A DNA stretch of 64,000 nt from Eledone cirrhosa (Eukaryota): the NCBI GenBank assembly GCA_964016885.1, contig OZ024744.1, positions 30,752,001 through 30,816,000 of the forward strand. Direction: 5' to 3'. The notes under the pieces are model-generated. The model did not search any database. It saw only the letters and a list, made by a program, of their open reading frames with translations, and was not told where the DNA came from. Shown piece by piece: positions 1 through 64,000 of this stretch; positions within the stretch are counted from its first letter, which is position 1; the number at the start of each line of letters is the position of its first letter. Both the position numbers and the translations under genes were made by a program.

Positions 1-344
1 GTCCTGTAGAATCTCATCTATATTAACATTTTTGATACCCATATACCTGATGATTTCTAAAGAATGAAACAGTTCTAGTCCAGTATGAATCTCATCTATA
101 TAAAAAAATGTTGATACACAGATTCCTTATGATTTCTAAAGAATGAAACAGTTCTAGTCCGGTAGAATCTCATCTATATTAACATTTTTTTATACGCAGA
201 TTCCTGATGATTTCTAAAGAATGAAACATCTCTAGTCCTGTAGAACTTCATCTATATTAAAAATTTTTGATACCCAGATTCCTGATGATTTCTATAGAAT
301 GACACAGTTCTAGTCCTGTAGAATCTCATCTATATAAACATTTT

Positions 345-416
345 TTGATACCCAGATTCCTGATGATTTCTAAAGAATGAAACAGTTCTAGTCCTGTAGA
401 ATCTCATCTATATTAA
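345..416 (+). ncRNA. Putative hammerhead ribozyme motif, representative consensus monomer (repeated in most monomers)
   Basis: TTGATA(345-350)-CCC-AGATTC(354-359)-CTGATGA(360-366)-T-TTC-TAAA-GAA-T(367-378)-GAA(379-381)-ACAG(382-385)-TTCTAGTC-CTGT(394-397)-A398^-GAATCT(399-404)-CATCTA-TATTAA(411-416). All conserved core nucleotides and three helices lie in the correct order. Position 10.1-11.1 is U-U instead of the usual purine-pyrimidine pair. Confidence 0.8.
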
Positions 417-1365
417 AACTTTTGATACCCAGATTCCTGATGATTTCTAAAGAATGAAGCAGTTCTCGTCCTGTAGAATCTCATCTATATTAAAAATTTT
501 TGATACCCAGATTCCTGATGATTTCTAAAGAATGAAACAGTTCTAGTCCTGTAGAATCTCATCTATATTAACATTTTTTGACACCCAGATTCCTGATAAT
601 TTCTAAAGAATGAAACAGTTCTAGTCCTGTAGAATCTCATCTATATTAACATTTTTGATACCCATATACCTGATGATTTCTAAAGAATGAAACAGTTCTA
701 GTCCAGTATGAATCTCATCTATATAAAAAAATGTTGATACACAGATTCGTTATGATTTCTAAAGAATGAAACAGTTCTAGTCCGGTAGAATCTCATCTAT
801 ATTAACATTTTTTTATACGCAGATTCCTGATGATTTCTAAAGAATGAAACAGTTCTAGTCTTGTAGAATCTCATCTATATTAACATTTTTGATACCCAGA
901 TTCCTGATGATTTCTAAAGAATGAAACAGTTCTAGTCCTGTAAAATCTCATCTATATAAAAAAATGTTGATACACAGATTCCTTATGATTTCTAAAGAAT
1001 GAAATAGTTCTAGTCCTGTAGAATCTCATCTATATTAACATTTTTTGATGCCCAGATTCCTGATGATTTCTAAAGAATGAAACAGTTCTAGTCCTGTAGA
1101 ATCTCATTTATATTAAAATTTTTTGATACCCAGATTCCTGATGATTTCTAATGAATGAAACAGTTCTAGTCCTGTAGAATCTCATCTATATTAACATTTT
1201 TTGATAAGCAGATTCCTGATGATTTCTAAAGAATGAAACAGTTCTAGTCCTGTAGAATCTCTTCTATATTAATATTTTTTGATACGCAGATTCCTGATGA
1301 TTTCTAAAGAATGAAACAGTTCTAGTCCTGTAGAATCCCATCTATATTAACATTTTTTGATACCC

Positions 1366-1416
1366 AGATTCCTGATGAATTCTAAAGAATGAAACAGTTC
1401 TAGTACTGTAGAATCT
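1366..1416 (+). ncRNA. Fully paired hammerhead variant monomer (4-bp stem II, 5-bp stem III); second copy at 3471-3521
   Basis: AGATTC CTGATGA ATTC-TAAA-GAAT GAA ACAGT-TCTAGT-ACTGT A^ GAATCT. All three stems are Watson-Crick paired; predicted cleavage after A1410. Confidence 0.82.
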
Positions 1417-4400: not shown

Positions 4401-4599
4401 CCTAGATTCCTGATAATTTCTAAAGAATGAAACAGTTCTAGTCCGGTAGAATCTCATCTATATTAATATTTTTTGATACGCAGATTCCTGATGATTTCTA
4501 AAGAATGAAACAGTTCTAGTCCTGTAGATTCTCATCTATATTAAACTTTTTTGATACCCAGATTCCTGATGATTTCTAAAGAATGAAACAGTTCTAGTC

Positions 4600-16200: not shown

Positions 16201-17132
16201 CTAGTCCTGTAGAATCTCATCTATATTAACATTTTTGACACCCAGATACCTGATGATTTCTAAAGAATGAAACAGTTCTAGTCCGGTAGAATCTCATCTA
16301 TATTAACATTTTTTGATACCCAGATTCCTGATGATTTCTAAAGAATGAAACAGTTCTAGTCCTGTAGAATCTCATCTATATTAACATTTTTTGATACCCA
16401 GATTCCTGATGATTTCTAAAGAATGAAACAGTTCTAGTCCTGTAGAATCTCATCTATATTAACATTTTTTGATACCCAGATTCCTGGTGATTTCTTAAGA
16501 ATGAAACAGTTCTAGTCCTGTAGAATCTCATCTATATTAACATTTTTTGACACCCAGATTCCTGGTGATTTCTAAAGAATGAAACAGTTCTAGTCCTGTA
16601 GAATCTCATCTATATTAACATTTTTCACACCCAGATACCTGATGATTTCTAAAGAATGAAACAGTTCTAGTCCTGTAAAATCTCATCTATATAAAAAAAT
16701 GTTGATACACAGATTCCTTATGATTTCTAAAGAATGAAACAGTTCTAGTCCTGTAGAATCAAATCTATATTAAAAATTTGTTGATACCCAGATTCCTGAT
16801 GATTTCTAAAGAATGAAACAGTTCTAGTCCTGTAGAATCTCATCTATATTAACATTTTTTGATACCCAGATTCGTGATAATTTCTAAAGAATGAAACAGT
16901 TCTAGTCCTGTAGAATCTCATCTATATTAACATTCTTTGATATCCAGATTGCTGATGATTTCTAAAGAATGAAACAGTTCTAGTCCTGTAGAATCTCATC
17001 TATATTAAAATTTGTTGATACCCAGATTCCTGATGATTTCTAAAGAATGAAACAGTTCTAGTCCTGTAGAATCTCATCTATATTAAAAATTTTTGATACC
17101 CAGATTCCTGTTGATTTCTAAAGAATGAAACA

Positions 17133-17379
17133 TAGGTGTCACGACAAAAAAACACACATTCCACACTGTAATGTGGCCGTGTAGGCAACACAGTAAAAAT
17201 CTCCCAGACCCACACTGTAAATGTGCTTGGTGTTAGGAAGGGCATCCAACTGTAGAAAACCTGCCAGACAGTCCTATGCGAGCAAGACAATCACTCTTGC
17301 CTCAAGTGGGACTACCCCCGTCCAAACCCATGCAAGCGTGGAACACGGACGTTAAACATTGATGATGATGATGATGATG
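17133..17379 (+). mobile_element. Non-autonomous RTE-type SINE-like retroposon, copy 1 (divergent), 247 bp
   Basis: Non-satellite, more GC-rich sequence ending in GGACGTTAAACATT(GAT)n and flanked by ATGAAACA (17125-17132) and ATGAAATA (17380-17387). The motifs GGTGTTAGGAAGGGCATCC and CCCATGCAAGCGTGGAACACGGACGTTAAA resemble RTE-derived SINE bodies and tails as I recall them (not database-checked). Confidence 0.8.
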
Positions 17380-18416
17380 ATGAAATAGTTCTAGTCCTGT
17401 AGAATCTCATGTATATTAATATTTTTTGATACCCAGATTCCTGATAATTTCTAAAGAAGGAAACAGTTCTAGTCCTGTAGAATCTCATCTATATTAAAAA
17501 ATTTTGATACCCAGATTCCTTATGATTTCTAAAGAATGAAACAGTTCTAGTCCTGTAGAATCTCATCTATATTAACATTTTTTGATACCCAGATTCCTGA
17601 TGATTTCTAAAGAATGAAACAGTTCTAGTCCTGTAGAATCTCATCTATATTAACATTTTTTGATACCCAGATTCCTGATGATTTCTAAAGAATGAAACAG
17701 TTCTAGTCCTGTAGAATGTCATCTATATTAAAATTTTTGGATACCCAGATTCCTGATGATTTCTAAAGAATGAAACAGTTCTAGTCCTTTAGAATCTCAT
17801 CCATATTAAAATTTTTTGATACCCAGATTCCTGATGATTTCTAAAGAATGAAACAGCTCTAGTCCTGTAGAACCTCATCTATATTAACATTTTTTGATAC
17901 CCAGATTCCTGATGATTTCTAAAGAATGAAACAGTTCTAGTCCTGTAGAATCTCATATACATTAACATTTTTTGACACCCAGATTCCTGATGATTTCTAA
18001 AGAATGAAACAGTTCTAGTCCTGTAGAATCTCATCTATATTAACATTTTTTGACACCCAGATTCCTGATAATTTCTAAAGAATGAAACAGTTCTAGTCCT
18101 GTAGAATCTCATCTATATTAACATTTTTGATACCCAGATTCCTGATAATTTCTAAAGAATGAAACAGTTCTAGTCCTGTAGAATCTCATCTATATTAACA
18201 TTTTTGATACCCAGATTCCTGATGATTTCTAAAGAATGAAACAGTTCTAGTCCTGTAGAATCTCATCTATATTAACATTTTTCACACCCAGATACCTGAT
18301 GATTTCTAAAGAATGAAACAGTTCTAGTCCTGTAGAATCTCATCTATATAAAAAAATGTTGATACACAGAATCCTTATGATTTCTAAAGAATGAAACAGT
18401 TCTAAAGAATGAAATA

Positions 18417-18663
18417 TAGGTGTCACCACAAAAAAACACACAGTCCACGCTGTAAAGTGGCCGTGTAGGCAACACGGTAAAGACCTCCCAGACCCACACT
18501 GTAAATGTGGTTGGTGTTAGGAAGGGCATCCAACTGTAGAAAACCTGCCAGACAGTCCTATGCGAGCAAGACAATCACTCTTGCCTCAAGTGGGACTACC
18601 CCCGTCCAAACCCATGCAAGCGTGGAACACGGACGTTAAACGTTGAAGGTGATGATGATGATG
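18417..18663 (+). mobile_element. SINE-like insert copy 2 (subtype B), 247 bp
   Basis: Same element; TSD ATGAAATA/ATGAAACA; preceded by an 18-bp satellite duplication. Confidence 0.8.
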
Positions 18664-20231
18664 ATGAAACAGTTCTAGTCGTGTAGAATCTCATCTATAT
18701 TAAAATTTTTTGATACCCAGATTCCTGATAATTTCTAAAGAATGAAACAGTTCTAGTCCTTTAGAATTTCATCCATATTAAAAATTTTTGATACCCAGAT
18801 TCCTGATGATTTCTAAAGAATGAAACAGTTTTAGTCCTGTAGAATCTCATCTATATTAAAATTTGTGACACCCAGATTCCTGATGATTTCTAAAGAATGA
18901 AACAGTTGTAGTTCAGTAGAATCTCATCTATATTAAAATTTTTTGAAACCCACATTCCTGATGATTTCTAAAGAATGAAACAGTTCTAGTCCTGTAGAAT
19001 CTCATCTATACTAATAATTTTTGATACCCAGATTCCTGGTGATTTCTAATGAATGAAACAGTTCTAGTCCTGTAGAATCTCATCTATATTCAAAATTTTT
19101 GATACCCAGATTCCTGATGATTTCTAAAGAATGAAACACCTCTAGTCCTTTAGAACCTCATCTATTTTAACATTTTTTGACACCCAGATTCCTGATGATT
19201 TCTAAAGAATGAAACAGTTCTAGTACTGTAGAATCTCATGTATACTAAAAATTTTTGATACCCAGATTCCTGATGATTTCTAAAGAATGAACTAGTTCTA
19301 GTCCTGTAGAATCTCATCTATATTAACACTTTTTGATACCCAGATTCCTGATGATTTCTAAAGAATGAAACAGTTCTAGTCCTGTAGAATCTCATCTATA
19401 TTAACATTTTTTGATACCCAGATTCCTGATGATTTCAAAAATAATGAAACAGTTCTAGTCCTGTAGAATCTCATCTATATTAAAATTTTTGGATACCCAG
19501 ATTCCTGATGATTTCTAAAGAATGAAACAGTTCTAGTCCTTTAGAATCTCATCCATATTAAAAATTTTTGATACCCAGATTCCTGATAATTTCTAAAGAA
19601 TGAAACAGTTCTAGTCCTGTAGAATCTCATCTATATTAAAAATTCTTGATACCCAGATTCCTGATGATTTCTAAAGAATGAAACAGTTCTAGTCCTGTAG
19701 AATCTCATTTATATTAACATTTTTTGACACCCAGATTCCTGATGATTTCTAAAGAATGAAACAGTTCTAGTACTGTAGAATCTCATCTAAACTAAACATT
19801 TTTGATACCCAGATTCCTGATGATTTCTAAAGAATGAACCAGTTCTAGTCCTGTAGAATCTCATCTATATTAAAATTTGTTGATACCCAGATTCCTGATG
19901 ATTTCTAAAGAATGAAACAGTTCTAGTCCTGTAGAATCTCATCTATATTAAAATTTTTTGATACCCAGATTCCTGATGATTTCTAAAGAATGAAACAGTT
20001 CTAGTCCTGTAGAATATCATCTATATTAAAAATATTTGATACCCAGATTACTGATGATTTCTAAAGAATGAAACAGTTCTAGTCCTGTAGAATCTCATCT
20101 ATATTAAAATTTGTTGATACCCAGATTCCTGATGATTTCTAAAGAATGAAACAGTTCTAGTCCTGTAGAATCTCATCTATATTAAAAATTTTTGATACCC
20201 AGATTCCTGATGATTTCTAAAGAATGAAACA

Positions 20232-20466
20232 TAGGTGTCACGACAAAAAAACACACAGTCCACACTGTAATGTGGCCGTGTAGGCAACACGGTAAAAACC
20301 TCCCAGACCCACACTGTAGATGTGGTTGGTGTTAGGAAGGGCATCCAACTGTAGAAAACCTGCCAGACAGTCCTATGCGAGCAAGACAATCACTCTTGCC
20401 TCAAGTGGGACTACCCACGTCCAAACCCATGTAAGCGTGGAACACGGACGTTAAACGTTGATGATG
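20232..20466 (+). mobile_element. SINE-like insert copy 3 (subtype A), 235 bp
   Basis: Perfect TSD ATGAAACA at 20224-20231 and 20467-20474; short (GAT)n tail. Confidence 0.8.
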
Positions 20467-22283
20467 ATGAAACAGTTCTAGTCGTGTAGAATCTCATCTA
20501 TATTAAAATTTTTTGACACCCAGATTCCTGATCATTTCCAAAGAATGAAACAGTTCTAGTCCGGTAGAATCTCATCTATATTAAAATTTGTTGATACCCA
20601 GATTCCTGATGATTTCTAAAGAATGAAACAGTTCTTGTCCTTTAGAATCTCATCCATATTAAAATTTTTTGTTACCCAGATTCCTGATAATTTCTAAAGA
20701 ATGAAACAGTTCTAGTCCTGTAGAATCTCATCTATATTAAAATTTTTTGATACCCAGATTCCTGATAATTTCTAAAGAATGAAACAGTTCTAGTATTGTA
20801 GAATCTCATCTATATTAAAAATTTTTGATACCCAGATTCCTGATGATTTCTAAAGTATGAAACAGTTCTAGTCCTGTAGAATCTCATCTATATTAACATT
20901 TTTTGATACCCAGATTCCTGATGATTTCTAAAGAATGAAACAGTTCTAGTCCTGTAGAATCTCATCTATATTAAAATTTTTGGATACCCATATTCCTGAT
21001 GATTTCTATAGAATGAAACAGTTCTAGTCCTGTAGAATCTCATCTATATTAAAATTTTTTGATACCCAGATTCCTGATGATTTCTAAAGAATGAAACAGT
21101 TCTAGTCCTGTAGATTCTCATGTATATTAAAATTTTTTAATACCCAGATTCCTGATGATTTCTAAAGAATGAAACAGTTCTAGTCCTGTAGAATGTCATC
21201 TATACTAAAATTTTTTGATACCCAGATTCCTGGTGATTTCTTAAGAATGAAACAGTTCTAGTCCTGTAGAATCTCATCTATATTAAAATTTTTTGATACC
21301 CAGATTCCTGATGATTTCTAAAGAATGAAACAGTTCTAGTCCTGTAGAATCTCATCTACATTAAAATTTTTTGATACCCAGATTCCTGATGATTTCTAAA
21401 GAATGAAACAGCTCTAGTCCTGTAGAATCTCATCTATATTAAAAATTTTTGATACCCACATTCCTGATGATTTCTAAAGAATGAAACAGTTCTAGTCCTG
21501 TAGAATCTCATCTATACTAATAATTTTTGATACCCAGATTCCTGGTGATTTCTAAAGAATGAAACAGTTCTAGTCCTGTAGAATCTCATCTATATTAAAA
21601 TTTTGTGACACCCAGATTCCTGATGATTTCTAAAGAATAAAACAGTTGTAGTTCAGTAGAATCTCATCTATATTAGAATTTTTTGATACCCACATTCCTG
21701 ATGATTTCTAAAGAATGAAACAGTTCTAGTCCTGTAGAACCTCATCTATATTAACATTTTTTGATACCCAGATTCCTGATGATTTCTAAAGAATGAAACA
21801 GTTCTAGTCCTGTAGAATCTCATATACATTAACATTTTTTGACACCCAGATTCCTGATGATTTCTAAAGAATGAAACAGTTCTAGTCCTGTAGAATCTCA
21901 TCTATATTAACATTTTTTGACACCCAGATTCCTGATAATTTCTAAAGAATGAAACAGCTCTAGTCCTGTAGAATCTCATCTATATTAACATTTTTGATAC
22001 CCAGATTCCTGATAATTTCTAAAGAATGAAACAGTTCTAGTCCTGTAGAATCTCATCTATATTAACATTTTTGATACCCAGATTCCTGATGATTTCTAAA
22101 GAATGAAACAGTTCTAGTCCTGTAGAATCTCATCTATATTAACATTTTTCACACCCAGATACCTGATGATTTCTAAAGAATGAAACAGTTCTAGTCCTGT
22201 AGAATCTCATCTATATAAAAAAATGTTGATACACAGAATCCTTATGATTTCTAAAGAATGAAACAGTTCTAAAGAATGAAATA

Positions 22284-22530
22284 TAGGTGTCACCACAAAA
22301 AAACACACAGTCCACGCTGTAAAGTGGCCGTGTAGGCAACACGGTAAAGACCTCCCAGACCCACACTGTAAATGTGGTTGGTGTTAGGAAGGGCATCCAA
22401 CTGTAGAAAACCTGCCAGACAGTCCTATGCGAGCAAGACAATCACTCTTGCCTCAAGTGGGACTACCCCCGTCCAAACCCATGCAAGCGTGGAACACGGA
22501 CGTTAAACGTTGATGGTGATGATGATGATG
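22284..22530 (+). mobile_element. SINE-like insert copy 4 (subtype B), 247 bp
   Basis: Near-identical to copy 2, with the same junctions. Confidence 0.8.
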
Positions 22531-24488
22531 ATGAAACAGTTCTAGTCGTGTAGAATCTCATCTATATTAAAATTTTTTGATACCCAGATTCCTGATGATT
22601 TCTAAAGAATGAAACAGTTCTAGTCCTTTAGAATCTCATCCATATTAAAAATTTTTGATACCCAGATTCCTGATGATTTCTAAAGAATGAAACAGTTTTA
22701 GTCCTGTAGAATCTCATCTATATTAAAATTTGTGACACCCAGATTCCTGATGATTTCTAAAGAATGAAACAGTTGTAGTTCAGTAGAATCTCATCTATAT
22801 TAAAATTTTTTGAAACCCACATTCCTGATGATTTCTAAAGAATGAAACAGTTCTAGTCCTGTAGAATCTCATCTATACTAATAATTTTTGATACCCAGAT
22901 TCCTGGTGATTTCTAAAGAATGAAACAGTTCTAGTCCTGTAGAATCTCATCTATATTCAAAATTTTTGATACCCAGATTCCTGATGATTTCTAAAGAATG
23001 AAACACCTCTAGTCCTTTAGAACCGCATCTATATTAACATTTTTTGACACCCAGATTCCTGATGATTTCTAAAGAATGAAACAGTTCTAGTACTGTAGAA
23101 TCTCATCTATACTAAAAATTTTTGATACCCAGATTCCTGATGATTTCTAAAGAATGAACTAGTTCTAGTCCTGTAGAATCTCATCTATATTAACACTTTT
23201 TGATACCCAGATTCGTGATGATTTCTAAAGAATGAAACAGTTCTAGTCCTGTAGAATCTCATCTATATTAACATTTTTTGATACCCAGATTCCTGATGAT
23301 TTCAAAAATAATGAAACAGTTCTAGTCCTGTAGAATCTCATCTATATTAAAATTTTTGGATACCCAGATTCCTGATGATTTCTAAAGAATGAAACAGTTC
23401 TAGTCCTTTAGAATCTCATCCATATTAAAAAATTTTGATACCCAGATTCCTGATAATTTCTAAAGAATGAAACAGTTCTAGTCCTGTAGAATCTCATCTA
23501 TATTAAAAATTCTTGATACCCAGATTCCTGATGATTTCTAAAGAATGAAACAGTTCTAGTCCTGTAGAATCTCATTTATATTAACATTTTTTGACACCCA
23601 GATTCCTGATGATTTCTAAAGAATGAAACAGTTCTAGTAATGTAGAACCTCATCTAAACTAAACATTTTTGATACCCAGATTCCTGATGATTTCTAAAGA
23701 ATGAACCAGTTCTAGTCCTGTAGAATCTCATCTATATTAACACTTTTTGATACCCAGATTCCTGATGATTTCTAAAGAATGAAACAGTTCTAGTCCTGTA
23801 GAATCTCATCGATATTAAAATTTTTTGATACCCAGATTCCTGATGATTTCTAAATAATGAAACAGTTCTAGTCCTGTAGAATCTCATCTATATTAAAATT
23901 TTTGGATACCCAGATTCCTGATGATTTCTAAAGAATGAAACAGTTCTAGTCCGGTAGAATCTCATCTATATTAACATTTTTTGATACCCAGATTCCTGAT
24001 GATTTCTAAAGAATGAAACAGTTCTAGTCCTGTAGAATCTCATCTATATTAACATTTTTTGATACCCAGATTCCTGATGATTTCCAAAGAATGAAACAGT
24101 TCTAGTCCGGTAGAATCTCATCTATATTAAAATTTGTTGATACCCAGATTCCTGATGATTTCTAAAGAATGAAACAGTTCTAGTCCTGTAGAATCTCATC
24201 TATATTAAAATTTTTTGATACCCAGATTCCTGATGATTTCTAAAGAATGAAACAGTTCTAGTCCTGTAGAATATCATCTATATTAAAAATATTTGATACC
24301 CAGATTACTGATGATTTCTAAAGAATGAAACAGTTCTAGTCCTGTAGAATCTCATCTATATTAAAATTTGTTGATACCCAGATTCCTGATGATTTCTAAA
24401 GAATGAAACAGTTCTAGTCCTGTAGAATCTCATCTATATTAAAAATTTTTGATACCCAGATTCCTGATGATTTCTAAAGAATGAAACA

Positions 24489-24723
24489 TAGGTGTCACGA
24501 CAAAAAAACACACAGTCCACACTGTAATGTGGCCGTGTAGGCAACACGGTAAAAACCTCCCAGACCCACACTGTAGATGTGGTTGGTGTTAGGAAGGGCA
24601 TCCAACTGTAGAAAACCTGCCAGACAGTCCTATGCGAGCAAGACAATCACTCTTGCCTCAAGTGGGACTACCCACGTCCTAACCCATGTAAGCGTGGAAC
24701 ACGGACGTTAAACGTTGATGATG
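24489..24723 (+). mobile_element. SINE-like insert copy 5 (subtype A), 235 bp
   Basis: Near-identical to copy 3, 4257 bp downstream of it. Confidence 0.8.
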
Positions 24724-26540
24724 ATGAAACAGTTCTAGTCGTGTAGAATCTCATCTATATTAAAATTTTTTGATACCCAGATTCCTGATGATTTCCAAAG
24801 AATGAAACAGTTCTAGTCCGGTAGAATCTCATCTATATTAAAATTTGTTGATACCCAGATTCCTGATGATTTCTAAAGAATGAAACAGTTCTTGTCCTTT
24901 AGAATCTCATCCATATTAAAATTTTTTGTTACCCAGATTCCTGATAATTTCTAAAGAATGAAACAGTTCTAGTCCTGTAGAATCTCATCTATATTAAAAT
25001 TTTTTGATACCCAGATTCCTGATAATTTCTAAAGAATGAAACAGTTCTAGTATTGTAGAATCTCATCTATATTAAAAATTTTTGATACCCAGATTCCTGA
25101 TGATTTCTAAAGTATGAAACAGTTCTAGTCCTGTAGAATCTCATCTATATTAACATTTTTTGATACCCAGATTCCTGATGATTTCTAAAGAATGAAACAG
25201 TTCTAGTCCTGTAGAATCTCATCTATATTAAAATTTTTGGATACCCATATTCCTGATGATTTCTATAGAATGAAACAGTTCTAGTCCTGTAGAATCTCAT
25301 CTATATTAAAATTTTTTGATACCCAGATTCCTGATGATTTCTAAAGAATGAAACAGTTCTAGTCCTGTAGATTCTCATGTATATTAAAATTTTTTAATAC
25401 CCAGATTCCTGATGATTTCTAAAGAATGAAACAGTTCTAGTCCTGTAGAATGTCATCTATACTAAAATTTTTTGATACCCAGATTCCTGGTGATTTCTTA
25501 AGAATGAAACAGTTCTAGTCCTGTAGAATCTCATCTATATTAAAATTTTTTGATACCCAGATTCCTGATGATTTCTAAAGAATGAAACAGTTCTAGTCCT
25601 GTAGAATCTCATCTACATTAAAATTTTTTGATACCCAGATTCCTGATGATTTCTAAAGAATGAAACAGCTCTAGTCCTGTAGAATCTCATCTATATTAAA
25701 AATTTTTGATACCCACATTCCTGATGATTTCTAAAGAATGAAACAGTTCTAGTCCTGTAGAATCTCATCTATACTAATAATTTTTGATACCCAGATTCCT
25801 GGTGATTTCTAAAGAATGAAACAGTTCTAGTCCTGTAGAATCTCATCTATATTAAAATTTTGTGACACCCAGATTCCTGATGATTTCTAAAGAATAAAAC
25901 AGTTGTAGTTCAGTAGAATCTCATCTATATTAGAATTTTTTGATACCCACATTCCTGATGATTTCTAAAGAATGAAACAGTTCTAGTCCTGTAGAACCTC
26001 ATCTATATTAACATTTTTTGATACCCAGATTCCTGATGATTTCTAAAGAATGAAACAGTTCTAGTCCTGTAGAATCTCATATACATTAACATTTTTTGAC
26101 ACCCAGATTCCTGATGATTTCTAAAGAATGAAACAGTTCTAGTCCTGTAGAATCTCATCTATATTAACATTTTTTGACACCCAGATTCCTGATAATTTCT
26201 AAAGAATGAAACAGCTCTAGTCCTGTAGAATCTCATCTATATTAACATTTTTGATACCCAGATTCCTGATAATTTCTAAAGAATGAAACAGTTCTAGTCC
26301 TGTAGAATCTCATCTATATTAACATTTTTGATACCCAGATTCCTGATGATTTCTAAAGAATGAAACAGTTCTAGTCCTGTAGAATCTCATCTATATTAAC
26401 ATTTTTCACACCCAGATACCTGATGATTTCTAAAGAATGAAACAGTTCTAGTCCTGTAGAATCTCATCTATATAAAAAAATGTTGATACACAGAATCCTT
26501 ATGATTTCTAAAGAATGAAACAGTTCTAAAGAATGAAATA

Positions 26541-26787
26541 TAGGTGTCACCACAAAAAAACACACAGTCCACGCTGTAAAGTGGCCGTGTAGGCAACACG
26601 GTAAAGACCTCCCAGACCCACACTGTAAATGTGGTTGGTGTTAGGAAGGGCATCCAACTGTAGAAAACCTGCCAGACAGTCCTATGCGAGCAAGACAATC
26701 ACTCTTGCCTCAAGTGGGACTACCCCCGTCCAAACCCATGCAAGCGTGGAACACGGACGTTAAACGTTGATGGTGATGATGATGATG
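26541..26787 (+). mobile_element. SINE-like insert copy 6 (subtype B), 247 bp
   Basis: Near-identical to copy 4, 4257 bp downstream of it. Confidence 0.8.
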
Positions 26788-28745
26788 ATGAAACAGTTCT
26801 AGTCGTGTAGAATCTCATCTATATTAAAATTTTTTGATACCCAGATTCCTGATGATTTCTAAAGAATGAAACAGTTCTAGTCCTTTAGAATCTCATCCAT
26901 ATTAAAAATTTTTGATACCCAGATTCCTGATGATTTCTAAAGAATGAAACAGTTTTAGTCCTGTAGAATCTCATCTATATTAAAATTTGTGACACCCAGA
27001 TTCCTGATGATTTCTAAAGAATGAAACAGTTGTAGTTCAGTAGAATCTCATCTATATTAAAATTTTTTGAAACCCACATTCCTGATGATTTCTAAAGAAT
27101 GAAACAGTTCTAGTCCTGTAGAATCTCATCTATACTAATAATTTTTGATACCCAGATTCCTGGTGATTTCTAAAGAATGAAACAGTTCTAGTCCTGTAGA
27201 ATCTCATCTATATTCAAAATTTTTGATACCCAGATTCCTGATGATTTCTAAAGAATGAAACACCTCTAGTCCTTTAGAACCTCATCTATATTAACATTTT
27301 TTGACACCCAGATTCCTGATGATTTCTAAAGAATGAAACAGTTCTAGTACTGTAGAATCTCATCTATACTAAAAATTTTTGATACCCAGATTCCTGATGA
27401 TTTCTAAAGAATGAACTAGTTCTAGTCCTGTAGAATCTCATCTATATTAACACTTTTTGATACCCAGATTCGTGATGATTTCTAAAGAATGAAACAGTTC
27501 TAGTCCTGTAGAATCTCATCTATATTAACATTTTTTGATACCCAGATTCCTGATGATTTCAAAAATAATGAAACAGTTCTAGTCCTGTAGAATCTCATCT
27601 ATATTAAAGTTTTTGGATACCCAGATTCCTGATGATTTCTAAAGAATGAAACAGTTCTAGTCCTTTAGAATCTCATCCATATTAAAAAATTTTGATACCC
27701 AGATTCCTGATAATTTCTAAAGAATGAAACAGTTCTAGTCCTGTAGAATCTCATCTATATTAAAAATTCTTGATACCCAGATTCCTGATGATTTCTAAAG
27801 AATGAAACAGTTCTAGTCCTGTAGAATCTCATTTATATTAACATTTTTTGACACCCAGATTCCTGATGATTTCTAAAGAATGAAACAGTTCTAGTAATGT
27901 AGAATCTCATCTAAACTAAACATTTTTGATACCCAGATTCCTGATGATTTCTAAAGAATGAACCAGTTCTAGTCCTGTAGAATCTCATCTATATTAACAC
28001 TTTTTGATACCCAGATTCCTGATGATTTCTAAAGAATGAAACAGTTCTAGTCCTGTAGAATCTCATCTATATTAAAATTTTTTGATACCCAGATTCCTGA
28101 TGATTTCTAAATAATGAAACAGTTCTAGTCCTGTAGAATCTCATCTATATTAAAATTTTTGGATAACCAGATTCCTGATGATTTCTAAAGAATGAAACAG
28201 TTCTAGTCCGGTAGAATCTCATCTATATTAACATTTTTTGATACCCAGATTCCTGATGATTTCTAAAGAATGAAACAGTTCTAGTCCTGTAGAATCTCAT
28301 CTATATTAACATTTTTTGATACCCAGATTCCTGATGATTTCCAAAGAATGAAACAGTTCTAGTCCGGTAGAATCTCATCTATATTAAAATTTGTTGATAC
28401 CCAGATTCCTGATGATTTCTAAAGAATGAAACAGTTCTAGTCCTGTAGAATCTCATCTATATTAAAATTTTTTGATACCCAGATTCCTGATGATTTCTAA
28501 AGAATGAAACAGTTCTAGTCCTGTAGAATATCATCTATATTAAAAATATTTGATACCCAGATTACTGATGATTTCTAAAGAATGAAACAGTTCTAGTCCT
28601 GTAGAATCTCATCTATATTAAAATTTGTTGATACCCAGATTCCTGATGATTTCTAAAGAATGAAACAGTTCTAGTCCTGTAGAATCTCATCTATATTAAA
28701 AATTTTTGATACCCAGATTCCTGATGATTTCTAAAGAATGAAACA

Positions 28746-28980
28746 TAGGTGTCACGACAAAAAAACACACAGTCCACACTGTAATGTGGCCGTGTAGGCA
28801 ACACGGTAATAACCTCCCAGACCCACACTGTAGATGTGGTTGGTGTTAGGAAGGGCATCCAACTGTAGAAAACCTGCCAGACAGTCCTATGCGAGCAAGA
28901 CAATCACTCTTGCCTCAAGTGGGACTACCCACGTCCAAACCCATGTAAGCGTGGAACACGGACGTTAAACGTTGATGATG
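28746..28980 (+). mobile_element. SINE-like insert copy 7 (subtype A), 235 bp
   Basis: Near-identical to copy 5, 4257 bp downstream of it. Confidence 0.8.
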
Positions 28981-31900
28981 ATGAAACAGTTCTAGTCGTG
29001 TAGAATCTCATCTATATTCAAATTTTTTGATACCCAGATTCCTGATGATTTCCAAAGAATGAAACAGTTCTAGTCCGGTAGAATCTCATCTATATTAAAA
29101 TTTGTTGATACCCAGATTCCTGATGATTTCTAAAGAATGAAACAGTTCTTGTCCTTTAGAATCTCATCCATATTAAAATTTTTTGTTACCCAGATTCCTG
29201 ATAATTTCTAAAGAATGAAACAGTTCTAGTCCTGTAGAATCTCATCTATATTAAAATTTTTTGATACCCAGATTCCTGATAATTTCTAAAGAATGAAACA
29301 GTTCTAGTATTGTAGAATCTCATCTATATTAAAAATTTTTGATACCCAGATTCCTGATGATTTCTAAAGTATGAAACAGTTCTAGTCCTGTAGAATCTCA
29401 TCTATATTAACATTTTTTGATACCCAGATTCCTGATGATTTCTAAAGAATGAAACAGTTCTAGTCCTGTAGATTCTCATGTATATTAAAATTTTTTAATA
29501 CCCAGATTCCTGATGATTTCTAAAGAATGAAACAGTTCTAGTCCTGTAGAATGTCATCTATACTAAAATTTTTTGATACCCAGATTCCTGGTGATTTCTT
29601 AAGAATGAAACAGTTCTAGTCCTGTAGAATCTCATCTATATTAAAATTTTTTGATACCCAAATTCCTGATGATTTCTAAAGAATGAAACAGTTCTAGTCC
29701 TGTAGAATCTCATCTACATTAAAATTTTTTGATACCCAGATTCCTGATGATTTCTAAAGAATGAAACAGCTCTAGTCCTGTAGAATCTCATCTATATTAA
29801 AAATTTCTGATACCCACATTCCTGATGATTTCTAAAGAATGAAACAGTTATAGTCCTGTAGAATCTCATCTATACTAATAATTTTTGATACCCAGATTCC
29901 TGGTGGTTTCTAAAGAATGAAACAGTTCTAGTCCTGTAGAATCTCATCTATATTAAAATTTTGTGACACCCAGATTCCTGATGATTTCTAAAGAATAAAA
30001 CAGTTGTAGTTCAGTAGAATCTCATCTATATTAGAATTTTTTGATACCCACATTCCTGATGATTTCTAAAGAATGAAACAGTTCTAGTCCTGTAGAATCT
30101 CATCTATACTAATAATTTTTGATACCCAGATTCCTGGTGATTTCTAAAGAATGAAACAGTTCTAGTCCTGTAGAATCTCATCTATATTAAAAATTTTTGA
30201 TACCCAGATTCGTGATGATTTCTAAAGAATGAAACACCTCTAGTCCTTTAGAACCTCATCTATATTAACATTTTTTGACACCCAGATTCCTGATGATTTC
30301 AAAAGAATGAAACAGTTCTAGTACTGTAGAATCTCATCTATACTAAAAATTTTTGATACCCAGATTCCTGATGATTTCTAAAGAATGAACTAGTTCTAGT
30401 CCTGTAGAATCTCATCTATATTAACACTTTTTGATACCCAGATTCCTGATGATTTCTAAAGAATGAAACAGTTCTAGACCTGTAGAATCTCATCTATATT
30501 AACATTTTTGATACCCAGATTCCTGATGATTTCTAAAGAATGAAACAGTTCTAGTCCTGTAGAATCTCATCTATATTAACATTTTTTGATACCCAGATTC
30601 CTAATGATTTCAAAAATAATGAAACAGTTCTAGTCCTGTAAAATCTCATCTATATTAACATTTTTTGATACCCAGATTCCTGATGATTTCTAAAGAATGA
30701 AACAGTTCTAGTCCTGTAGAATCTCATCTATATTAAAAATTCTTGATACCCAGATTCCTGATGATTTCTAAAGAATGAAACAGTTCTAGTCCTGTAGAAT
30801 CTCATCTATATTATCATTTTTTGATACCCAGATTCCTGATGATTTCTAAAGAATGAAACAGTTCTAGTCCCGTAGAATCTCATCTATATTAAAAAATTTT
30901 GATACCCAGATTCTAGATGATTTCTAAAGAATGAAACAGTTCTAGTCCTGTAGAATCTCATCTATATATAAATTTTTTGATACCCAGATTCCTGATAATT
31001 TCTAAAGAATGAAACAGTTCTAGTCCTGTAGAATCTCATCTATATTAACATTTTTTGATACCCAGATTTCTGATAATTTCTAAAGAATGAAACAGATCTA
31101 GTCCTGTAGAATCTCATCTATATTAACATTTTTTCATACCCAGATTCCTGATAATTTGTAAAGAATGAAACAGTTCTAGTCCTGTAGAATCTCATCTATA
31201 TTAACATTTTTTGATACCCAGATTCCTGATGATTTCTAAAGAATGAAACAGTTCTAGTCCTGTAGAATCTCATCTATATTAAAATTTTTGGATACCCATA
31301 TTCCTGATGATTTCTATAGAATGAAACAGTTCTAGTCCTGTAGAATCTCATCTATATTAAAATTTTTTGATACCCAGATTCCTGATGATTTCTAAAGAAT
31401 AAAACAGTTCTAGTCCTGTAGATTCTCATGTATATTAAAATTTTTTAATACCCAGATTCCTGATGATTTCTAAAGAATGAAACAGTTCTAGTCCTGTAGA
31501 ATGTCATCTATACTAAAATTTTTTGATACCCAGATTCCTGGTGATTTCTTAAGAATGAAACAGTTCTAGTCCTGTAGAATCTCATCTATATTAAAATTTT
31601 TTGATACCCAGATTCCTGATGATTTCTAAAGAATGAAACAGTTCTAGTCCTGTAGAATCTCATCTACATTAAAATTTTTTGATACCCAGATTCCTGATGA
31701 TTTCTAAAGAATGAAACAGCTCTAGTCCTGTAGAATCTCATCTATATTAAAAATTTTTGATACCCACATTCCTGATGATTTCTAAAGAATGAAACAGTTA
31801 TAGTCCTGTAGAATCTCATCTATACTAATAATTTTTGATACCCAGATTCCTGGTGATTTCTAAAGAATGAAACAGTTCTAGTCCTGTAGAATCTCATCTA

Positions 31901-59900: not shown

Positions 59901-62900
59901 CAGATTCCTGATGATTTCTAAAGAATGAAACTGTTCTAGTCCTGTAGAATCTCATCTATATTAACATTTTTTGATACACAGATTCCTGATGATTTCTAAA
60001 GAATGAAACTGTTCTAGTCCTGTAGAATCTCATCTATATTAACATTTTTTGATACCCAGATTCAGATTCCTGATGATTTCTAAAGAATGAAACAGTTCTA
60101 GTCCTGTAGAATCTCATCTATATTAACATTTTTTGATACCCAGATTCCTGATGAATTCTAAAGAATGAAACAGTTCTAGTCCTGTAGAATCTCATCTATA
60201 GTAACATTTTTGATACCCTGATTCCTGATGATTTCTAAAGAATGAAACAGTTCTAGTCCTGTAGAATCTCATCTATATTAACATTTTTTGATACCCAGAT
60301 TCCTGATGATTTCTAAAGAATGAAACAGTTCTAGTCCTTTAGAATCTCATCCATATTAAAATTTGTTGATACCCAGATTCCTGATGATTTCTAAACAATG
60401 AAACAGTTCTAGTCCTGTAGAATCTCATCTACATTAAATTTTTTAGATACCCAGATTCCTGATCATTTCTAAAGAATGAAATAGTTCTAGTCCTCTAGAA
60501 TCTCATCTATATTAACATTTTTTGATACCCAGATTCCTGATGATTTCTAAAGAATGAAACAGTTGTAGTCCTTTAGAATCTCATCCATATTAAAATTTTT
60601 TGATACCCAGATTCCTGATGATTTCTAAAGAATGAAACTGTTCTAGTCCTGTAGAATCTCATCTATATTAACATTTTTTGATACCCAGATTCCTGATGAA
60701 TTCTAAAGAATGAAACAGTTCTAGTCCTGTAGAATCTCATCTATATTAACATTTTTTGATACCCAGATTCCTGATGAATTCTAAAGAATGAAACAGTTCT
60801 AGTCCTGTAGAATCTCATCTATATTAACATTTTTGATACCCTGATTCCTGATGATTTCTAAAGAATGAAACAGTTCTAGTCATCTAGAATCTCATCTATA
60901 TTAACATTTTTTGATACCCAGATTCCTGATGAATTCTAAAGAATGAAACAGTTCAAGTCCTGTAGAATCTCATCTATATTAACATTTTTGATACCCAGAT
61001 TCCTGATGATTTCTAAAGAATGAAACAGTTCTAGTCCTGTAGAATCTCATGTATATTAACAATTTTTGATACCCAGATTCCTGATGATTTCTAAAGAATG
61101 AAACAGTTCTAGTCCTGTAGAATCTCATCCATATTAAAATTTTTTGATACCCAGATTCCTGATAATTTGTAAAGAATGAAACAGTTCTAGTCCTGTAGAA
61201 TCTCATCTATATTAACATTTTTTCACACCCAGATTCCTGATGATTTCTAAAGAATGAAACAGTTCTAGTCCTGTAGAATCTCATCCATATTAAAAATTTT
61301 TGATACCCAGATTCCTGATAATTTGTAAAGAATGAAACAGTTCTAGTCCTGTAGAATCTCATCTATATTAAAAATTCTTGATATCCAGATTCCTGATGAT
61401 TTCTAAAGAATGAAACAGTTCTAGTCCTGTAGAATCTCATCTATATTAACATTTTTTGATAACCAGATTCCTGATGATTTCTAAAGAATGAAACAGTCCT
61501 AGTCCTGTAGAATCTCATCTACATTAAATTTTTTAGATACCCAGATTCCTGATGATTTCTAAAGAATGAAACAGTTCTAGTCCTGTAGAATCTCATCTAT
61601 ATTAACATTTTTTGATACCCAGATTCCTGATGATTTCTAAAGAATGAAACAGTTCTAGTCCTTTAGAATCTCATCCATATTAAAATTTGTTGATACCCAG
61701 ATTCCTGATAATTTGTAAAGAATGAAACAGTTCTAGTCCTGTAGAATCTCATCTATATTAAAAATTTTTGATACCCAGATTCCTGATGATTTCTAAAGAA
61801 TGAAACTGTTCTAGTCCTGTAGAATCTCATCTATATTAACATTTTTTGATACACAGATTCCTGATGATTTCTAAAGAATGAAACTGTTCTAGTCCTGTAG
61901 AATCTCATCTATATTAACATTTTTTGATACCCAGATTCCTGATGATTTCTAAAGAATGAAACAGTTCTAGTCCTGTAGAATCTCATCTATATTAACATTT
62001 TTTGATACCCAGATTCCTGATGAATTCTAAAGAATGAAACAGTTCTAGTCCTGTAGAATCTCATCTATAGTAACATTTTTGATACCCTGATTCCTGATGA
62101 TTTCTAAAGAATGAAACAGTTCTAGTCATCTAAAATCTCATCTATATTAACATTTTTTGATACCCAGATTCCTGATGAATTCTAAAGAATGAAACAGTTC
62201 AAGTCCTGTAGAATCTCATCTATATTAACATTTTTGATACCCAGATTCCTGATGATTTCTAAAGAATGAAACAGTTCTAGTCCTGTAGAATCTCATGTTT
62301 ATTAACAATTTTTGATACCCAGATTCCTGATGATTTCTAAAGAATGAAACAGTTCTAGTCCTGTAGAATCTCATGTATATTAACAATTTTTGATACCCAG
62401 ATTCCTGATGATTTCTAAAGAATGAAACAGTTCTAGTCCTGTAGAATCTCATCTATATTAACATTTTTTGATACCCAGATTCCTGATGAATTCTAAAGAA
62501 TGAAACAGTTCTAGTCCTGTAGAATCTCATCTATAGTAACATTTTTGATACCCTGATTCCTGATGATTTCTAAATAATGAAACAGTTCTAGTCATCTAGA
62601 ATCTCATCTATATTAACATTTTTTGATACCCAGATTCCTGATGAATTCTAAAGAATGAAACAGTTCAAGTCCTGTAGAATCTCATCTATATTAACATTTT
62701 TGATACCCTGATTCCTGACGATTTCTAAATAATGAAACAGTTCTAGTCATCTAGAATCTCATCTATATTAACATTTTTTGATACCCAGATTCCTGATGAA
62801 TTCTAAAGAATGAAACAGTTCAAGTCCTGTAGAATCTCATCTATATTAACATTTTTGATACCCAGATTCCTGATGATTTCTAAAGAATGAAACAGTTCTA

Positions 62901-64000
62901 GTCCTGTAGAATCTCATCTATATTAACAATTTTTGATACCCAGATTCCTGATGATTTCTAAAGAATGAAACAGTTCTAGTCCTGTAGAATCTCATCTATA
63001 TATAAATTTTTTGATACCCAGATTCCTGATAATTTCTAAAGAATGAAACAGTTCTAGTCCTGTAGAATCTCATCTATATTAACATTTTTGATACCCAGAT
63101 TCCTGATGATTTCTAAAGAATGAAACAGTTGTAGTCCTGTAGAATCTCATCTATATTAACATTTTTTGATACCCAGATTTCTGATAATTTCTAAAGAATG
63201 AAACAGATCTAGTCCTGTAGAATCTCATCTATATTAAAAATTTTTGATACCCAGATTCCTGATAATTTGTAGAGAATGAAACAGTTCTAGTCCTGTAGAA
63301 ACTCATCTATATTAAAATTTTTTGATACCCAGATTCCTGATGATTTCTAAAGAATGAAACAGATCTAGTCCTGTAGAATCTCATCTATATTAACATTTTT
63401 TGATACCCAGATTCCTGATGATTTCTAAAGAATGAAACAGTTCTAGTCCTGTAGAATCTCATCTATATTAACATTTTTTGATACCCAGATTCCTGATGAA
63501 TTCTAAAGAATGAAACAGTTCTAGTCCTGTAGAATCTCATCTATAGTAACATTTTTGATACCCTGATTCCTGATGATTTCTAAAGAATGAAACAGTTCTA
63601 GTCATCTAGAATCTCATCTATATTAACATTTTTTGATACCCAGATTCCTGATGAATTCTAAAGAATGAAACAGTTCAAGTCCTGTAGAATCTCATCTATA
63701 TTAACATTTTTGATACCCAGATTCCTGATGATTTCTAAAGAATGAAACAGTTCTAGTCCTGTAGAATCTCATGTATATTAACAATTTTTGATACCCAAAT
63801 TCCTGATGATTTCTAAAGAATGAAACAGTTCTAGTCCTGTAGAATCTCATATACATTAAATTTTTTAGATACCCAGATTCCTGATGATTTCTAAAGAATG
63901 AAACAGTTCTAGTCATCTAGAATCTCATCTATATTAACATTTTTTGATACCCAGATTCCTGATGAATTCTAAAGAATGAAACAGTTCTAGTCCTGTAGAA
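33000..64000. repeat. Right-hand satellite subfamily domain with nested higher-order repeats (periods ~1169, ~5691-5769, 1947, 1789, 2265 bp)
   Basis: The same multi-monomer variant cassette (tracked by the 75-aa spurious ORF) starts at 33773, 34942, 37125, 40711, 42816, 47807, 49754, 52871, 54660, 56449, 58714 and 60979. Spacings are near-multiples of 78 (15, 73-74, 25, 23, 29 monomers). Confidence 0.85.
33014..33064 (+). ncRNA. Hammerhead variant with A10.1-U11.1 stem II, representative of the variant common in the right half
   Basis: AGATTC CTGATGA ATTC-TAAA-GAAT GAA ACAG-TTCAAGTC-CTGT A^ GAATCT; predicted cleavage after A33058. Confidence 0.8.

What the first reader, a model, noticed from the sequence alone, without database searches (positions are those of the whole stretch)
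1..64000. Satellite whose 78-bp monomer is essentially a hammerhead ribozyme: ~800 tandem self-cleaving RNA motifs
Seen: on the + strand each consensus monomer contains, in the right order, stem I (AGAUUC/GAAUCU, extended past a CCC/CAUCUA internal loop by UUGAUA/UAUUAA), C3U4G5A6U7G8A9, a stem II hairpin (UUC-UAAA-GAA), G12A13A14, stem III (ACAG/CUGU, with A15.1-U16.1) and an NUH triplet GUA. That covers 72 of 78 nt; the remaining ~6 nt linker is the most variable part. Known: hammerheads occur in tandem repeats of newts (satellite 2), schistosomes (Sm-alpha) and Dolichopoda crickets, in metazoan non-LTR retrozymes and in Penelope-like element pLTRs, but those monomers are typically well over 100 nt and the ribozyme is a minor part. 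Inference: this is a minimal ribozyme-only repeat amplified into a homogeneous array of at least 64 kb with higher-order structure; read-through transcripts would be diced into 78-nt units. Caveat: the majority monomer has U-U at 10.1-11.1, which may reduce activity.
Basis: partly seen in the sequence, partly recalled or inferred. Interest (0 to 1): 0.93.

Follow-up and report, generated by a model that had tools for sequence, protein, structure and literature searches.

The report
Satellite grown from a transposon's ribozyme
In an animal genome, the short self-cutting RNA motif at the end of an active jumping gene was copied head-to-tail about 4,800 times at one spot, and one edge of the array still carries the jumping gene's insertion footprint, giving an unusually clear picture of how ribozyme-bearing satellite DNA is born, although the ribozyme now seems to be decaying as a passenger.

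Summary
Observation confirmed: each 78-bp unit is a type I hammerhead motif on the + strand (1 of 200,000 shuffles matches as well). The window is part of one 377-kb array of about 4,800 units. The unit is the last 78 bp of the pseudo-LTR of a young Hydra-type Penelope-like element (PLE): about 15,460 exact dispersed copies of the hammerhead stretch exist, and 30 of 63 scored ORF copies are full-length without stops. The head-to-tail junction occurs 1,733 times in the genome: 1,732 in this array, once in an 8-unit orphan. The left edge keeps an inverted hammerhead with the PLE's tail and (TA)n, a typical PLE insertion end. Growth was at DNA level: kilobase block duplications, co-duplicated retroposon inserts. 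The catalytic core is not more conserved than the rest (p about 0.14); 23% of units have a broken core. U·U at 10.1-11.1 is inherited from the PLE. Cleavage and transcription are untested. This is a new variant of PLE-derived non-LTR retrozyme repeats (published: units 51-972 bp, up to 300-450 copies), over ten times longer, with parent and seed visible.

The parts
1..64000 (+). Part of a 78-bp satellite array (about 798 units in the window; whole array G000:C28:30,496,726-30,873,730, about 4,800 units, all on one strand)
341..418 (+). Example unit, equal to the array consensus over the 69 scored positions and to the last 78 bp of the PLE pseudo-LTR
343..359 (+). 5' strand of stem I: outer helix 343-350, 3-nt side of the internal loop 351-353, inner helix 354-359
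   Evidence: inner helix has a two-sided A-U to C-G change in a sister subfamily
360..366 (+). Catalytic box C3-A9 (CUGAUGA)
367..378 (+). U10.1, 3-bp stem II with 4-nt loop (368-377), U11.1
   Evidence: loop II varies and stem II is kept among subfamilies
379..382 (+). G12 A13 A14 A15.1
383..398 (+). Stem III (383-385 with 394-396), 8-nt loop with a central 4-nt palindrome (386-393), U16.1 and A17; predicted cut between 398 and 399
   Evidence: self-dimer of the stem III strand -12.8 vs hairpin -1.4 kcal/mol
399..418 (+). 3' strand of stem I: inner helix 399-404, 6-nt side of the internal loop 405-410, outer helix 411-418; the head-to-tail junction follows
   Evidence: junction specific to this array
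17133..17382 (+). Retroposon 3'-end insert, 250 bp, (GAT)n tail, type A; breaks the unit just 3' of GAAA
18417..18666 (+). Insert type B (250 bp)
20232..20469 (+). Insert type C (238 bp)
22284..22533 (+). Insert type B, identical to 18417 over 228 nt
24489..24726 (+). Insert type C; lies 4,257 bp after 20232, in a block with a 2,491-bp exact duplicate
26541..26790 (+). Insert type B, 4,257 bp after 22284
28746..28983 (+). Insert type C, 4,257 bp after 24489

Best explanation
A single-locus satellite born from a Penelope-like element. Step 1 (shown): a young Hydra-type PLE family carries a type I hammerhead at the 3' end of its pseudo-LTR, and the 78-bp unit is that end, cut almost exactly at the two ends of stem I. 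Step 2 (shown for the footprint, inferred for the event): one 5'-truncated, inverted PLE insertion landed in (TA)n at C28:30.4966 Mb; its inverted arm with the roughly 68-nt PLE tail and (TA)n survives as the array's left edge. Step 3 (inferred): the first head-to-tail junction arose at a short microhomology: the bases just 3' of the hammerhead and the bases just 5' of it differ by one letter over 8-9 positions, so slippage, unequal exchange or a reverse-transcriptase template jump deletes everything but the ribozyme. Step 4 (shown in pattern): the dimer grew to about 4,800 units by DNA-level block duplication (unequal exchange or break-induced copying) inside a larger block of other satellites. 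Step 5 (shown statistically): the ribozyme is now a passenger that mutates as freely as the rest of the unit. Step 6 (inferred): if the + strand is ever read through, the roughly 40% of units with intact core and stems could cut at GUA^, most likely not as isolated type I folds but with a neighbour, as a permuted (type III) or dimeric hammerhead, slowly and incompletely.
For: Parent: the exact 25-mer over stem III and the cut site occurs 17,787 times (control 0), 2,322 of them in the 450-kb region, so about 15,460 are dispersed; blastn of a PLE locus against the unit gives 98.7% over 77-79 bp; 15 of 20 top ORF loci have the hammerhead about 130 bp upstream of the ORF match; 30 of 63 scored ORF matches cover all 712 residues without a stop at 96-100% identity. 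Seed: the inverted left arm ends in the same tail plus (TA)n as 17 of 22 dispersed tail copies examined, and its tail letters and loop II match the TAAA subfamily. Uniqueness: junction pattern 1,733 forward, 0 reverse, 1,732 in this array. DNA-level growth: 317 exact repeats of 400 bp or more, longest 4,479 bp at lag 5,999; neighbouring units differ as much as random pairs (4.21 vs 4.20 of 69); 7 inserts of three types repeat with a 4,257-bp period. Passenger: core positions vary 3.3% among 984 distinct units against 4.2% for base-matched non-core positions (p=0.14; rank test p=0.13); stem changes break pairs 809 times, keep them 144 times, 2 two-sided. Function in the parent: two-sided stem I change in 1,921 copies of a sister subfamily against 73 and 40 half-changed copies; other families keep the core with other stems. 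Neighbour-assisted fold: across 35 distinct intact dimers the permuted fold lies a median 2.1 kcal/mol above the minimum, the single type I fold 6.3 (3.4 for one consensus unit).
Against: The core is slightly less variable than the rest (trend in the direction of selection; only 11 positions and shared ancestry of units give low power). Both arms at the left edge begin with the 10 junction letters, which hints that the junction was already in the RNA template, so the seed may have been a reverse-transcribed multimer rather than a DNA slip (AT-rich and palindromic, so weak). The right edge is overwritten by another PLE-family repeat, so no second insertion end or target duplication can be read. 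The 8-unit orphan on C1 shows that pieces can move. Pfam support for the parent protein is below cut-off (GIY-YIG E=0.019) and no tree was built. Folding models leave out Mg2+ and tertiary contacts and also fail to fold the parent's hammerhead in its native flanks, so they may understate activity; in 126 five-unit contexts all hammerhead helices had low probability.
Confidence: 0.8

Rival explanations
1. RNA-first origin: a 78-nt self-cleaved, circularised mini-retrozyme was copied round and round by the PLE reverse transcriptase and inserted as a short multimer with PLE-type ends; DNA-level duplication only enlarged it later.
For: Model proposed for PLE hammerheads and retrozymes (PMC4209133; PMC7229834). 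The unit is almost exactly a closed hammerhead. Both left-edge arms carry the junction letters and the inverted arm has the PLE tail. An active RT source exists. Another hammerhead family in this genome forms dispersed 420-500-bp tandem runs with an inverted arm.
Against: A 78-nt circle needs the junction to exist first. Only one array and one orphan carry the junction among about 15,460 dispersed copies. The orphan's ends are not at the cut site and have no PLE tail or (TA)n, but short microhomologies and a local 17-bp duplication, as in break repair. The array as a whole cannot be a rolling-circle product.
Confidence: 0.25
2. Domesticated array: the host transcribes the satellite and needs its dicing into 78-nt RNAs (heterochromatin or centromere RNA, or a trap that feeds small RNAs against the PLE family).
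For: All units on one strand; 3,627 of 4,717 keep the core; 1,894 keep core and stems. The array sits within a locus-specific satellite block whose 80-bp flanking repeat flips orientation across it. TE-derived tandem arrays can be centromeric (10.64898/2026.09.17.752431, passage). The unit is 97-99% identical to a very abundant active PLE end.
Against: No measurable protection of core or stems; adjacent intact pairs are not enriched (647 observed, 747 expected); inserts that break the core region were amplified along with the rest. No chromatin or RNA data.
Confidence: 0.1
3. The hammerhead match is chance, or the array is an assembly artefact.
For: Rfam scores far below threshold; hammerhead is not the minimum-energy fold.
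Against: 1 of 200,000 shuffles; identity to a PLE pseudo-LTR end, where hammerheads are the rule; two-sided stem change; 1,288 distinct units, no N, block structure; contigs of 3 of 3 public runs span the junction (one sample, possibly the assembly's own).
Confidence: 0.01

Closest known systems
Non-LTR retrozymes of animals (PMC7229834; bioRxiv 10.64898/2026.07.22.740005)
   Same: Head-to-tail repeat with a type I hammerhead in each unit, no coding capacity, GC under 50%, co-occurs with PLEs and derives from a pLTR; the preprint proposes exactly this local birth from a PLE end and reports multimers enriched at chromosome ends and centres. 78 bp lies inside its 51-972 bp range.
   Different: About 4,800 units at one locus against maxima of 62 (coral), 180 (axolotl) and 300 (a beetle); far below the 150-450 bp of tested retrozymes; nothing but the ribozyme in the unit; one array rather than many dispersed short runs; higher-order block structure; the parent's insertion end is still attached; no RNA shown.
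Hammerheads in the pLTRs of Hydra-clade Penelope-like elements (PMC8557442 section 11; PMC4209133)
   Same: The unit is such a hammerhead, 97-99% identical to the dispersed copies; inverted 5'-truncated arm, terminal tail and (TA)n target as described for PLEs; palindromic loop III suited to dimers.
   Different: Detached from the ORF and the rest of the pLTR and amplified in tandem. Stem III is 4 bp with an 8-nt loop, longer than the minimal metazoan PLE form; U·U replaces the usual G10.1-C11.1; the tail is about 68 nt rather than 30-40.
Schistosoma W36.2/Sm-alpha and amphibian satellite 2 / axolotl Rtz331 and Rtz353 (PMC8490949 passages; PMC7229834)
   Same: Satellite-like arrays with hammerheads; axolotl HHR_Amex2 shares the U·U at the base of stem II and cleaves 22% as a monomer, better as a dimer.
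   Different: Units of 330-415 bp, up to 450 copies per family in the schistosome assembly; transcription and cleavage were shown there, not here.
Transposon-derived satellite arrays in centromeric regions (10.64898/2026.09.17.752431, passages)
   Same: A sub-sequence of one transposon amplified to an array of hundreds of kilobases within other satellites.
   Different: The quoted cases are kilobase Athila units; the word ribozyme does not occur in that text; no centromere data here.

Membership tests
Type I hammerhead ribozyme | Core CUGANGA, GAAA and UH in order around a three-way junction | tested here: met
   Consensus and 3,627 of 4,717 gap-free units; 1 of 200,000 shuffles as good
Type I hammerhead ribozyme | Helices I, II, III can form, stem I open-ended, with covariation | tested here: met
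   6+8, 3 and 4 bp; two-sided stem I change in 1,921 copies vs 73 and 40 half-changed (one evolutionary event); other families keep stems with other letters
Type I hammerhead ribozyme | Paired 10.1-11.1 (usual, not obligatory: HHR_Amex2 cleaves without it) | tested here: not met
   U·U in 4,403 of 4,717 units and 35 of 35 dispersed copies; A-U in 237
Type I hammerhead ribozyme | Rfam hammerhead model score at gathering threshold | tested here: not met
   Hammerhead_3 12.6-17.2 bits vs 48.5; no other hammerhead family listed up to E=10
Type I hammerhead ribozyme | Loop I-loop II tertiary contact | tested here: inconclusive
   A 3x6 internal loop sits at the right distance, but loop II varies freely among subfamilies; contacts not modelled
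Type I hammerhead ribozyme | Mg2+-dependent self-cleavage | not testable with these tools
   No assay; folding predictions are lukewarm
Non-LTR retrozyme (sequence definition, bioRxiv 10.64898/2026.07.22.740005) | Tandem repeat with at least two consecutive units bearing a complete type I hammerhead, fold energy below -5 kcal/mol | tested here: met
   647 adjacent pairs with core and all stems intact; -8.7 minimum, -5.3 hammerhead fold
Non-LTR retrozyme | Related to the pLTR of a co-resident PLE; non-coding; GC under 50% | tested here: met
Non-LTR retrozyme (as tested in PMC7229834) | Unit of about 150-450 bp | tested here: not met
   77-81 bp; inside the wider 51-972 bp range of the preprint
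Non-LTR retrozyme | Mobile: many dispersed tandem copies with target duplications | tested here: not met
   One array plus one orphan; orphan lacks PLE ends
Non-LTR retrozyme | Expressed as linear and circular unit-length RNA | not testable with these tools
   No RNA run available
Hydra-clade PLE (parent element) | Single ORF, RT followed by C-terminal GIY-YIG endonuclease | tested here: met
   758-codon frame; Pfam GIY-YIG at the C-terminal end but below cut-off; Atlas neighbours at 0.96-0.99 include GIY-YIG and RVT_1 clusters; RT motifs recognised from memory
Hydra-clade PLE (parent element) | RWK motif, DKT in place of DKG, CxCX5C linker, CxxC and CxH near the end | tested here: met
   RWR, DKT, C-N-C-5-C, C-DL-C and C-M-H read in P0001 against the list in PMC8557442 section 11
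Hydra-clade PLE (parent element) | Insertion into (TA)n, hammerhead in the pLTR, inverted truncated arm | tested here: met
Hydra-clade PLE (parent element) | Generally under 3 kb (typical, not defining) | tested here: not met
   Hammerhead to hammerhead 5,966 bp in the one copy measured, with a microsatellite-rich 3' region
Hydra-clade PLE (parent element) | Placement in the Hydra clade on an RT tree | not tested
   No reference Hydra proteins were fetched

The most novel reading that the evidence does not exclude
The array is read through on the + strand and, because the tandem junction closes stem I into a hairpin and lets the palindromic stem III strands of neighbours pair, it works as a chain of permuted (type III) hammerheads that cut it into 78-nt RNAs or closed 78-nt circles, a ribozyme-only replicon unit; these RNAs mark a centromere-like block or silence the genome's roughly 15,000 parent PLE ends.
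Probability: 0.12. Interest if true: 0.88.

Novelty: new variant of a known kind. Interest (0 to 1): 0.58.

Why it matters
How hammerhead-bearing tandem repeats (retrozymes, amphibian and schistosome satellites) arise has been argued from co-occurrence and sequence trees. Here parent, seed and product sit in one genome: an active PLE family, an insertion end still attached to the array, a junction explained by a short microhomology, and a measurable decay of the ribozyme afterwards. That makes the DNA-slip versus RNA-circle question testable at one locus, and shows that a hammerhead array need not be under selection. At about 4,800 units it is over ten times longer than the arrays in the papers read, and the unit is close to the smallest self-contained closed hammerhead, a ready test object for neighbour-assisted cleavage and for the lower size limit of ribozyme-made circles. 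The same genome holds more than 54,000 exact-pattern PLE hammerhead matches.

Tried and rejected
Rfam: no hammerhead at threshold in the window; a scan of three outside loci was swamped by microsatellite-microRNA noise and is uninformative. Free folding gave no hammerhead as minimum and no better energy than shuffles. The linear and circular unit energies were computed on a natural unit that happened to carry a core substitution and one extra base; not used. Expression: no RNA holder listed; three runs of unrecorded kind from one sample were laid as contigs on one unit and show only that the junction and the PLE-type continuations exist in run data. PDB sequence search with the parent protein: 3 chance-level hits. 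One search used a gap one base too short and so returned only deletion variants (51 matches) of the sister subfamily; the short stem III seen in L087 is such a variant, not a family. Idea that the U·U is an array defect: rejected. Idea that the flanking 80-bp repeat is a genome-wide centromeric satellite: not supported; its first listed match is on C28 and none on C1-C27 (1,224 matches, only 100 listed). Idea that the orphan is a recent copy of a present array block: not supported; longest exact match 142 bp, whereas 60 random array pieces have a median of 494 bp elsewhere in the array; best run differs at 12 places. ORFs in the flanking 18-bp and 80-bp satellites are repeat artefacts. Literature: nine full-text searches showed no description of this repeat, of a cephalopod hammerhead satellite or of an array this long; subscription journals are not covered, and the supplementary tables of the 2026 retrozyme preprint, which list its 51-100 bp families, could not be seen, so a ribozyme-only unit may already be tabulated there. 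One search found nothing on the rate cost of a 10.1-11.1 mismatch. Three look-ups in the scan's earlier findings returned nothing on this repeat.


Full report
Observation. The whole window is a 78-bp tandem repeat (period 78, 89% matches) with 798 unit anchors and 294 distinct units. On the + strand each consensus unit reads as a type I hammerhead: outer stem I, a 3x6 internal loop, a 6-bp inner stem I, CUGAUGA, U10.1, a 3-bp stem II with a 4-nt loop, U11.1, GAAA, a stem III with an 8-nt loop, and GUA at the cut site (coordinates for unit 341-418). One of 200,000 dinucleotide shuffles, read as tandem repeats on both strands, matched with equally long stems. Against this, Rfam's Hammerhead_3 model gives 12.6-17.2 bits for a threshold of 48.5, and the hammerhead fold is 3.4 kcal/mol above the predicted minimum. 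The array is not homogeneous: seven 238-250-bp inserts with a (GAT)n tail interrupt it between 17133 and 28983.

Extent and setting. The window is G000:C28:30,752,001-30,816,000 in a 3.0-Gb assembly. Reading 450 kb around it shows one array from about 30,496,726 to 30,873,730, without N, all on one strand, with 4,802 anchors and 1,288 distinct units among the 4,784 of 74-82 bp. To the left lie a long palindrome, (AT)n, 19 kb of an 18-bp satellite and an 80-bp satellite; to the right a 422-bp repeat in 2.8 copies, (TA)n, and the same 80-bp satellite in the opposite orientation. The organism is an animal by its PLEs and Atlas neighbours; the insert recalls octopus RTE-type retroposon ends, which is memory and was not tested.

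The parent. An exact 25-mer over stem III and the cut site occurs 17,787 times in the genome (control 0), 2,322 times in the 450-kb region. In 20 fetched dispersed loci the hammerhead is preceded by a constant upstream sequence and followed either by (TA)n, or by a tail of about 68 nt and then (TA)n or an open frame; many copies form head-to-head pairs. One locus holds a 758-codon frame; its product P0001 has RWR, DKT, a CxCX5C linker, CxxC and CxH, the marks listed for Hydra-clade PLEs, which also insert into (TA)n and carry hammerheads (PMC8557442, section 11 and passages read). Pfam gives only a sub-threshold GIY-YIG hit at the C-terminal end; Atlas neighbours at 0.96-0.99 include GIY-YIG and RVT_1 clusters; no tree was built. 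Of 63 scored tblastn matches (94,864 first-look candidates) 30 cover all 712 residues with no stop at 96-100% identity, and 15 of the top 20 loci have the hammerhead just upstream of the frame. The family is therefore young. The satellite unit matches the last 77-79 bp of its pseudo-LTR at 98.7%; the 69-position consensus of 35 dispersed copies differs from the array consensus at one loop II base, and 8 of the 35 have the array's loop.

The motif is functional in the parent lineage by comparative evidence. A sister subfamily has C-G for A-U in stem I in 1,921 copies, against 73 and 40 half-changed copies, with a freely varying loop II (one event, counted many times). Two further families keep the core with different stems I and II and a 4-nt palindromic stem III, and also have U·U at 10.1-11.1; a pattern that demands this U·U finds 36,854 matches against 10 controls. 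Metazoan PLE hammerheads tested so far cleave weakly (PMC4209133, parts 1-2 of 4 read).

The seed. The array's left edge is an inverted hammerhead followed by the PLE tail and (TA)n, ending at the same point as 17 of 22 dispersed tail copies examined, with tail and loop letters of the TAAA subfamily. This is the inverted, 5'-truncated arm described for PLE insertions. The head-to-tail junction is found 1,733 times in the genome, all forward: 1,732 in this array and one in an orphan of about 8 units at C1:350,200,252-350,200,843; the pattern catches about 36% of junctions, so tiny arrays could be missed but large ones not. In the PLE the letters just 3' of stem I and those just 5' of it differ by one base over 8-9 positions, enough for a slip or template jump that leaves only the ribozyme (inference). 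Both arms at the left edge begin with ten junction letters, a weak hint that the junction was already in the RNA template. The right edge ends inside a core, at the 422-bp repeat, which carries its own minimal hammerhead.

Growth. There are 317 exact repeats of 400 bp or more, up to 4,479 bp at a lag of 5,999; preferred lags of 17-189 units change along the array, and neighbours differ as much as random pairs (4.21 vs 4.20 of 69 positions). The seven inserts fall into three types, identical or nearly so within type, repeating every 4,257 bp; a second, reversed insert is duplicated near the right end. This is DNA-level duplication. The orphan shares array-type linkers, has no PLE tail, does not end at the cut site and has microhomology and a short local duplication at its ends, which fits capture at a break.

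Is the ribozyme maintained? Among 4,717 gap-free units (81 of 4,798 left out for indels or inserts) mean identity to the consensus is 96.8%; 3,627 keep the core and 1,894 keep core and all three stems (window: 571 and 318 of 766). Among 984 distinct units the 11 core positions vary 3.3% against 4.2% for base-matched others (p=0.14; rank test p=0.13), and stem changes break pairs 809 times, keep them 144 times, 2 two-sided. Adjacent intact pairs number 647 against 747 expected. The trend is towards slight protection but is not significant, and units are not independent. The simplest reading is neutral decay.

How it would act if transcribed (inference). In tandem, the 3' strand of stem I can pair with the next unit's 5' strand across the short linker, and the two stem III strands can form a 12-bp interrupted duplex through the loop palindrome (-12.8 vs -1.4 kcal/mol for the hairpin), giving a type III hammerhead in which one unit's core cuts its upstream neighbour; Rfam's best hit has this topology. 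Over 35 distinct intact dimers this fold lies a median 2.1 kcal/mol above the minimum against 6.3 for the single type I fold, but stem II is rarely formed, and in 126 five-unit contexts all helices are improbable. The same model fails to fold the parent's hammerhead in its own flanks, so these numbers guide an assay and no more. There are no RNA data.

Comparison. Hammerhead tandem repeats are known as non-LTR retrozymes: 150-450 bp and up to 62-mers in coral; 51-972 bp and up to 300 units across 35 genomes, derived from PLE pLTRs, with local birth from a terminal repeat proposed, and 1 of 9 tested dimers active (bioRxiv 10.64898/2026.07.22.740005, parts 1-3 of 5 read, supplements not seen); schistosome W36.2 reaches 450 copies of 333 bp (PMC8490949, passages). 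The giant squid paper counts 235 hammerheads without detail (PMC6962438, passages). The repeat meets the preprint's sequence definition of a retrozyme but not the mobility shown or implied for that class, and expression is unknown; it is best filed as a PLE-pLTR-derived satellite of retrozyme form. New here are the length (over ten times the largest array in the papers read), a unit that is ribozyme only, and a visible parent and seed. Nine searches showed no report of it.

Verdict. Real, explained in origin, a new variant of a known kind; interest 0.58. The bold reading, a self-dicing array that makes 78-nt RNAs or circles with a role, is not excluded (about 0.12).

Noticed in passing
window 17133-28983 (7 copies); G000:C28:30869103 and 30871237 (2 reversed, longer copies): 3' ends of a retroposon with a (GAT)n tail inserted into the unit at tail-like microhomologies, then duplicated with array blocks; useful clocks for array growth. 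Resemblance to octopus RTE-type elements is from memory.
   Followed up: partly
L089:132-1294 (G000:C28:30873732-30874893); similar runs at G000:C1:9968461-9972122 and C1:5541142-5543703: A 422-bp tandem repeat with a minimal hammerhead (palindromic 4-nt stem III, U·U at 10.1-11.1) cuts off the array's right end; the same family forms dispersed 420-500-bp tandem runs with an inverted arm, i.e. ordinary-sized retrozyme-like repeats.
   Followed up: partly
G000 whole genome: Very high hammerhead load: 17,787 exact matches for one family's 25-mer, 1,921 for a sister subfamily pattern and 36,854 for minimal U·U forms; at least three abundant Hydra-like PLE protein families with many open frames.
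   Followed up: partly
G000:C28:30338029-30476244 and from 30879577 to beyond 30903000: An 80-bp GC-rich satellite flanks the hammerhead array on both sides in opposite orientations and was listed only on C28; with the 18-bp and other repeats it forms a composite satellite block of 0.8 Mb or more, a possible centromere or inversion centre.
   Followed up: partly
G000:C28:30476242-30495341: 19-kb array of an 18-bp unit with long stop-free frames (repeat artefacts).
   Followed up: no
G000:C28:30496170-30496540: Near-perfect palindrome with arms of about 190 bp immediately left of the PLE footprint; origin not identified.
   Followed up: no
L088:4252-4843 (G000:C1:350200252-350200843): Orphan of about 8 satellite units on another chromosome, closer to the consensus than average array units and not a copy of any present block; a tRNA gene lies 3.2 kb away (L088:7998-8069).
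   Followed up: yes
L016 (G000:C28:31400001-31403000): Another short tandem repeat of about 48 bp about 0.5 Mb to the right of the array.
   Followed up: no
array-wide, 237 of 4,717 units (68 of 766 in the window): A natural variant restores an A-U pair at 10.1-11.1 and is among the commonest whole-unit types in the window; a built-in comparison for cleavage assays.
   Followed up: partly
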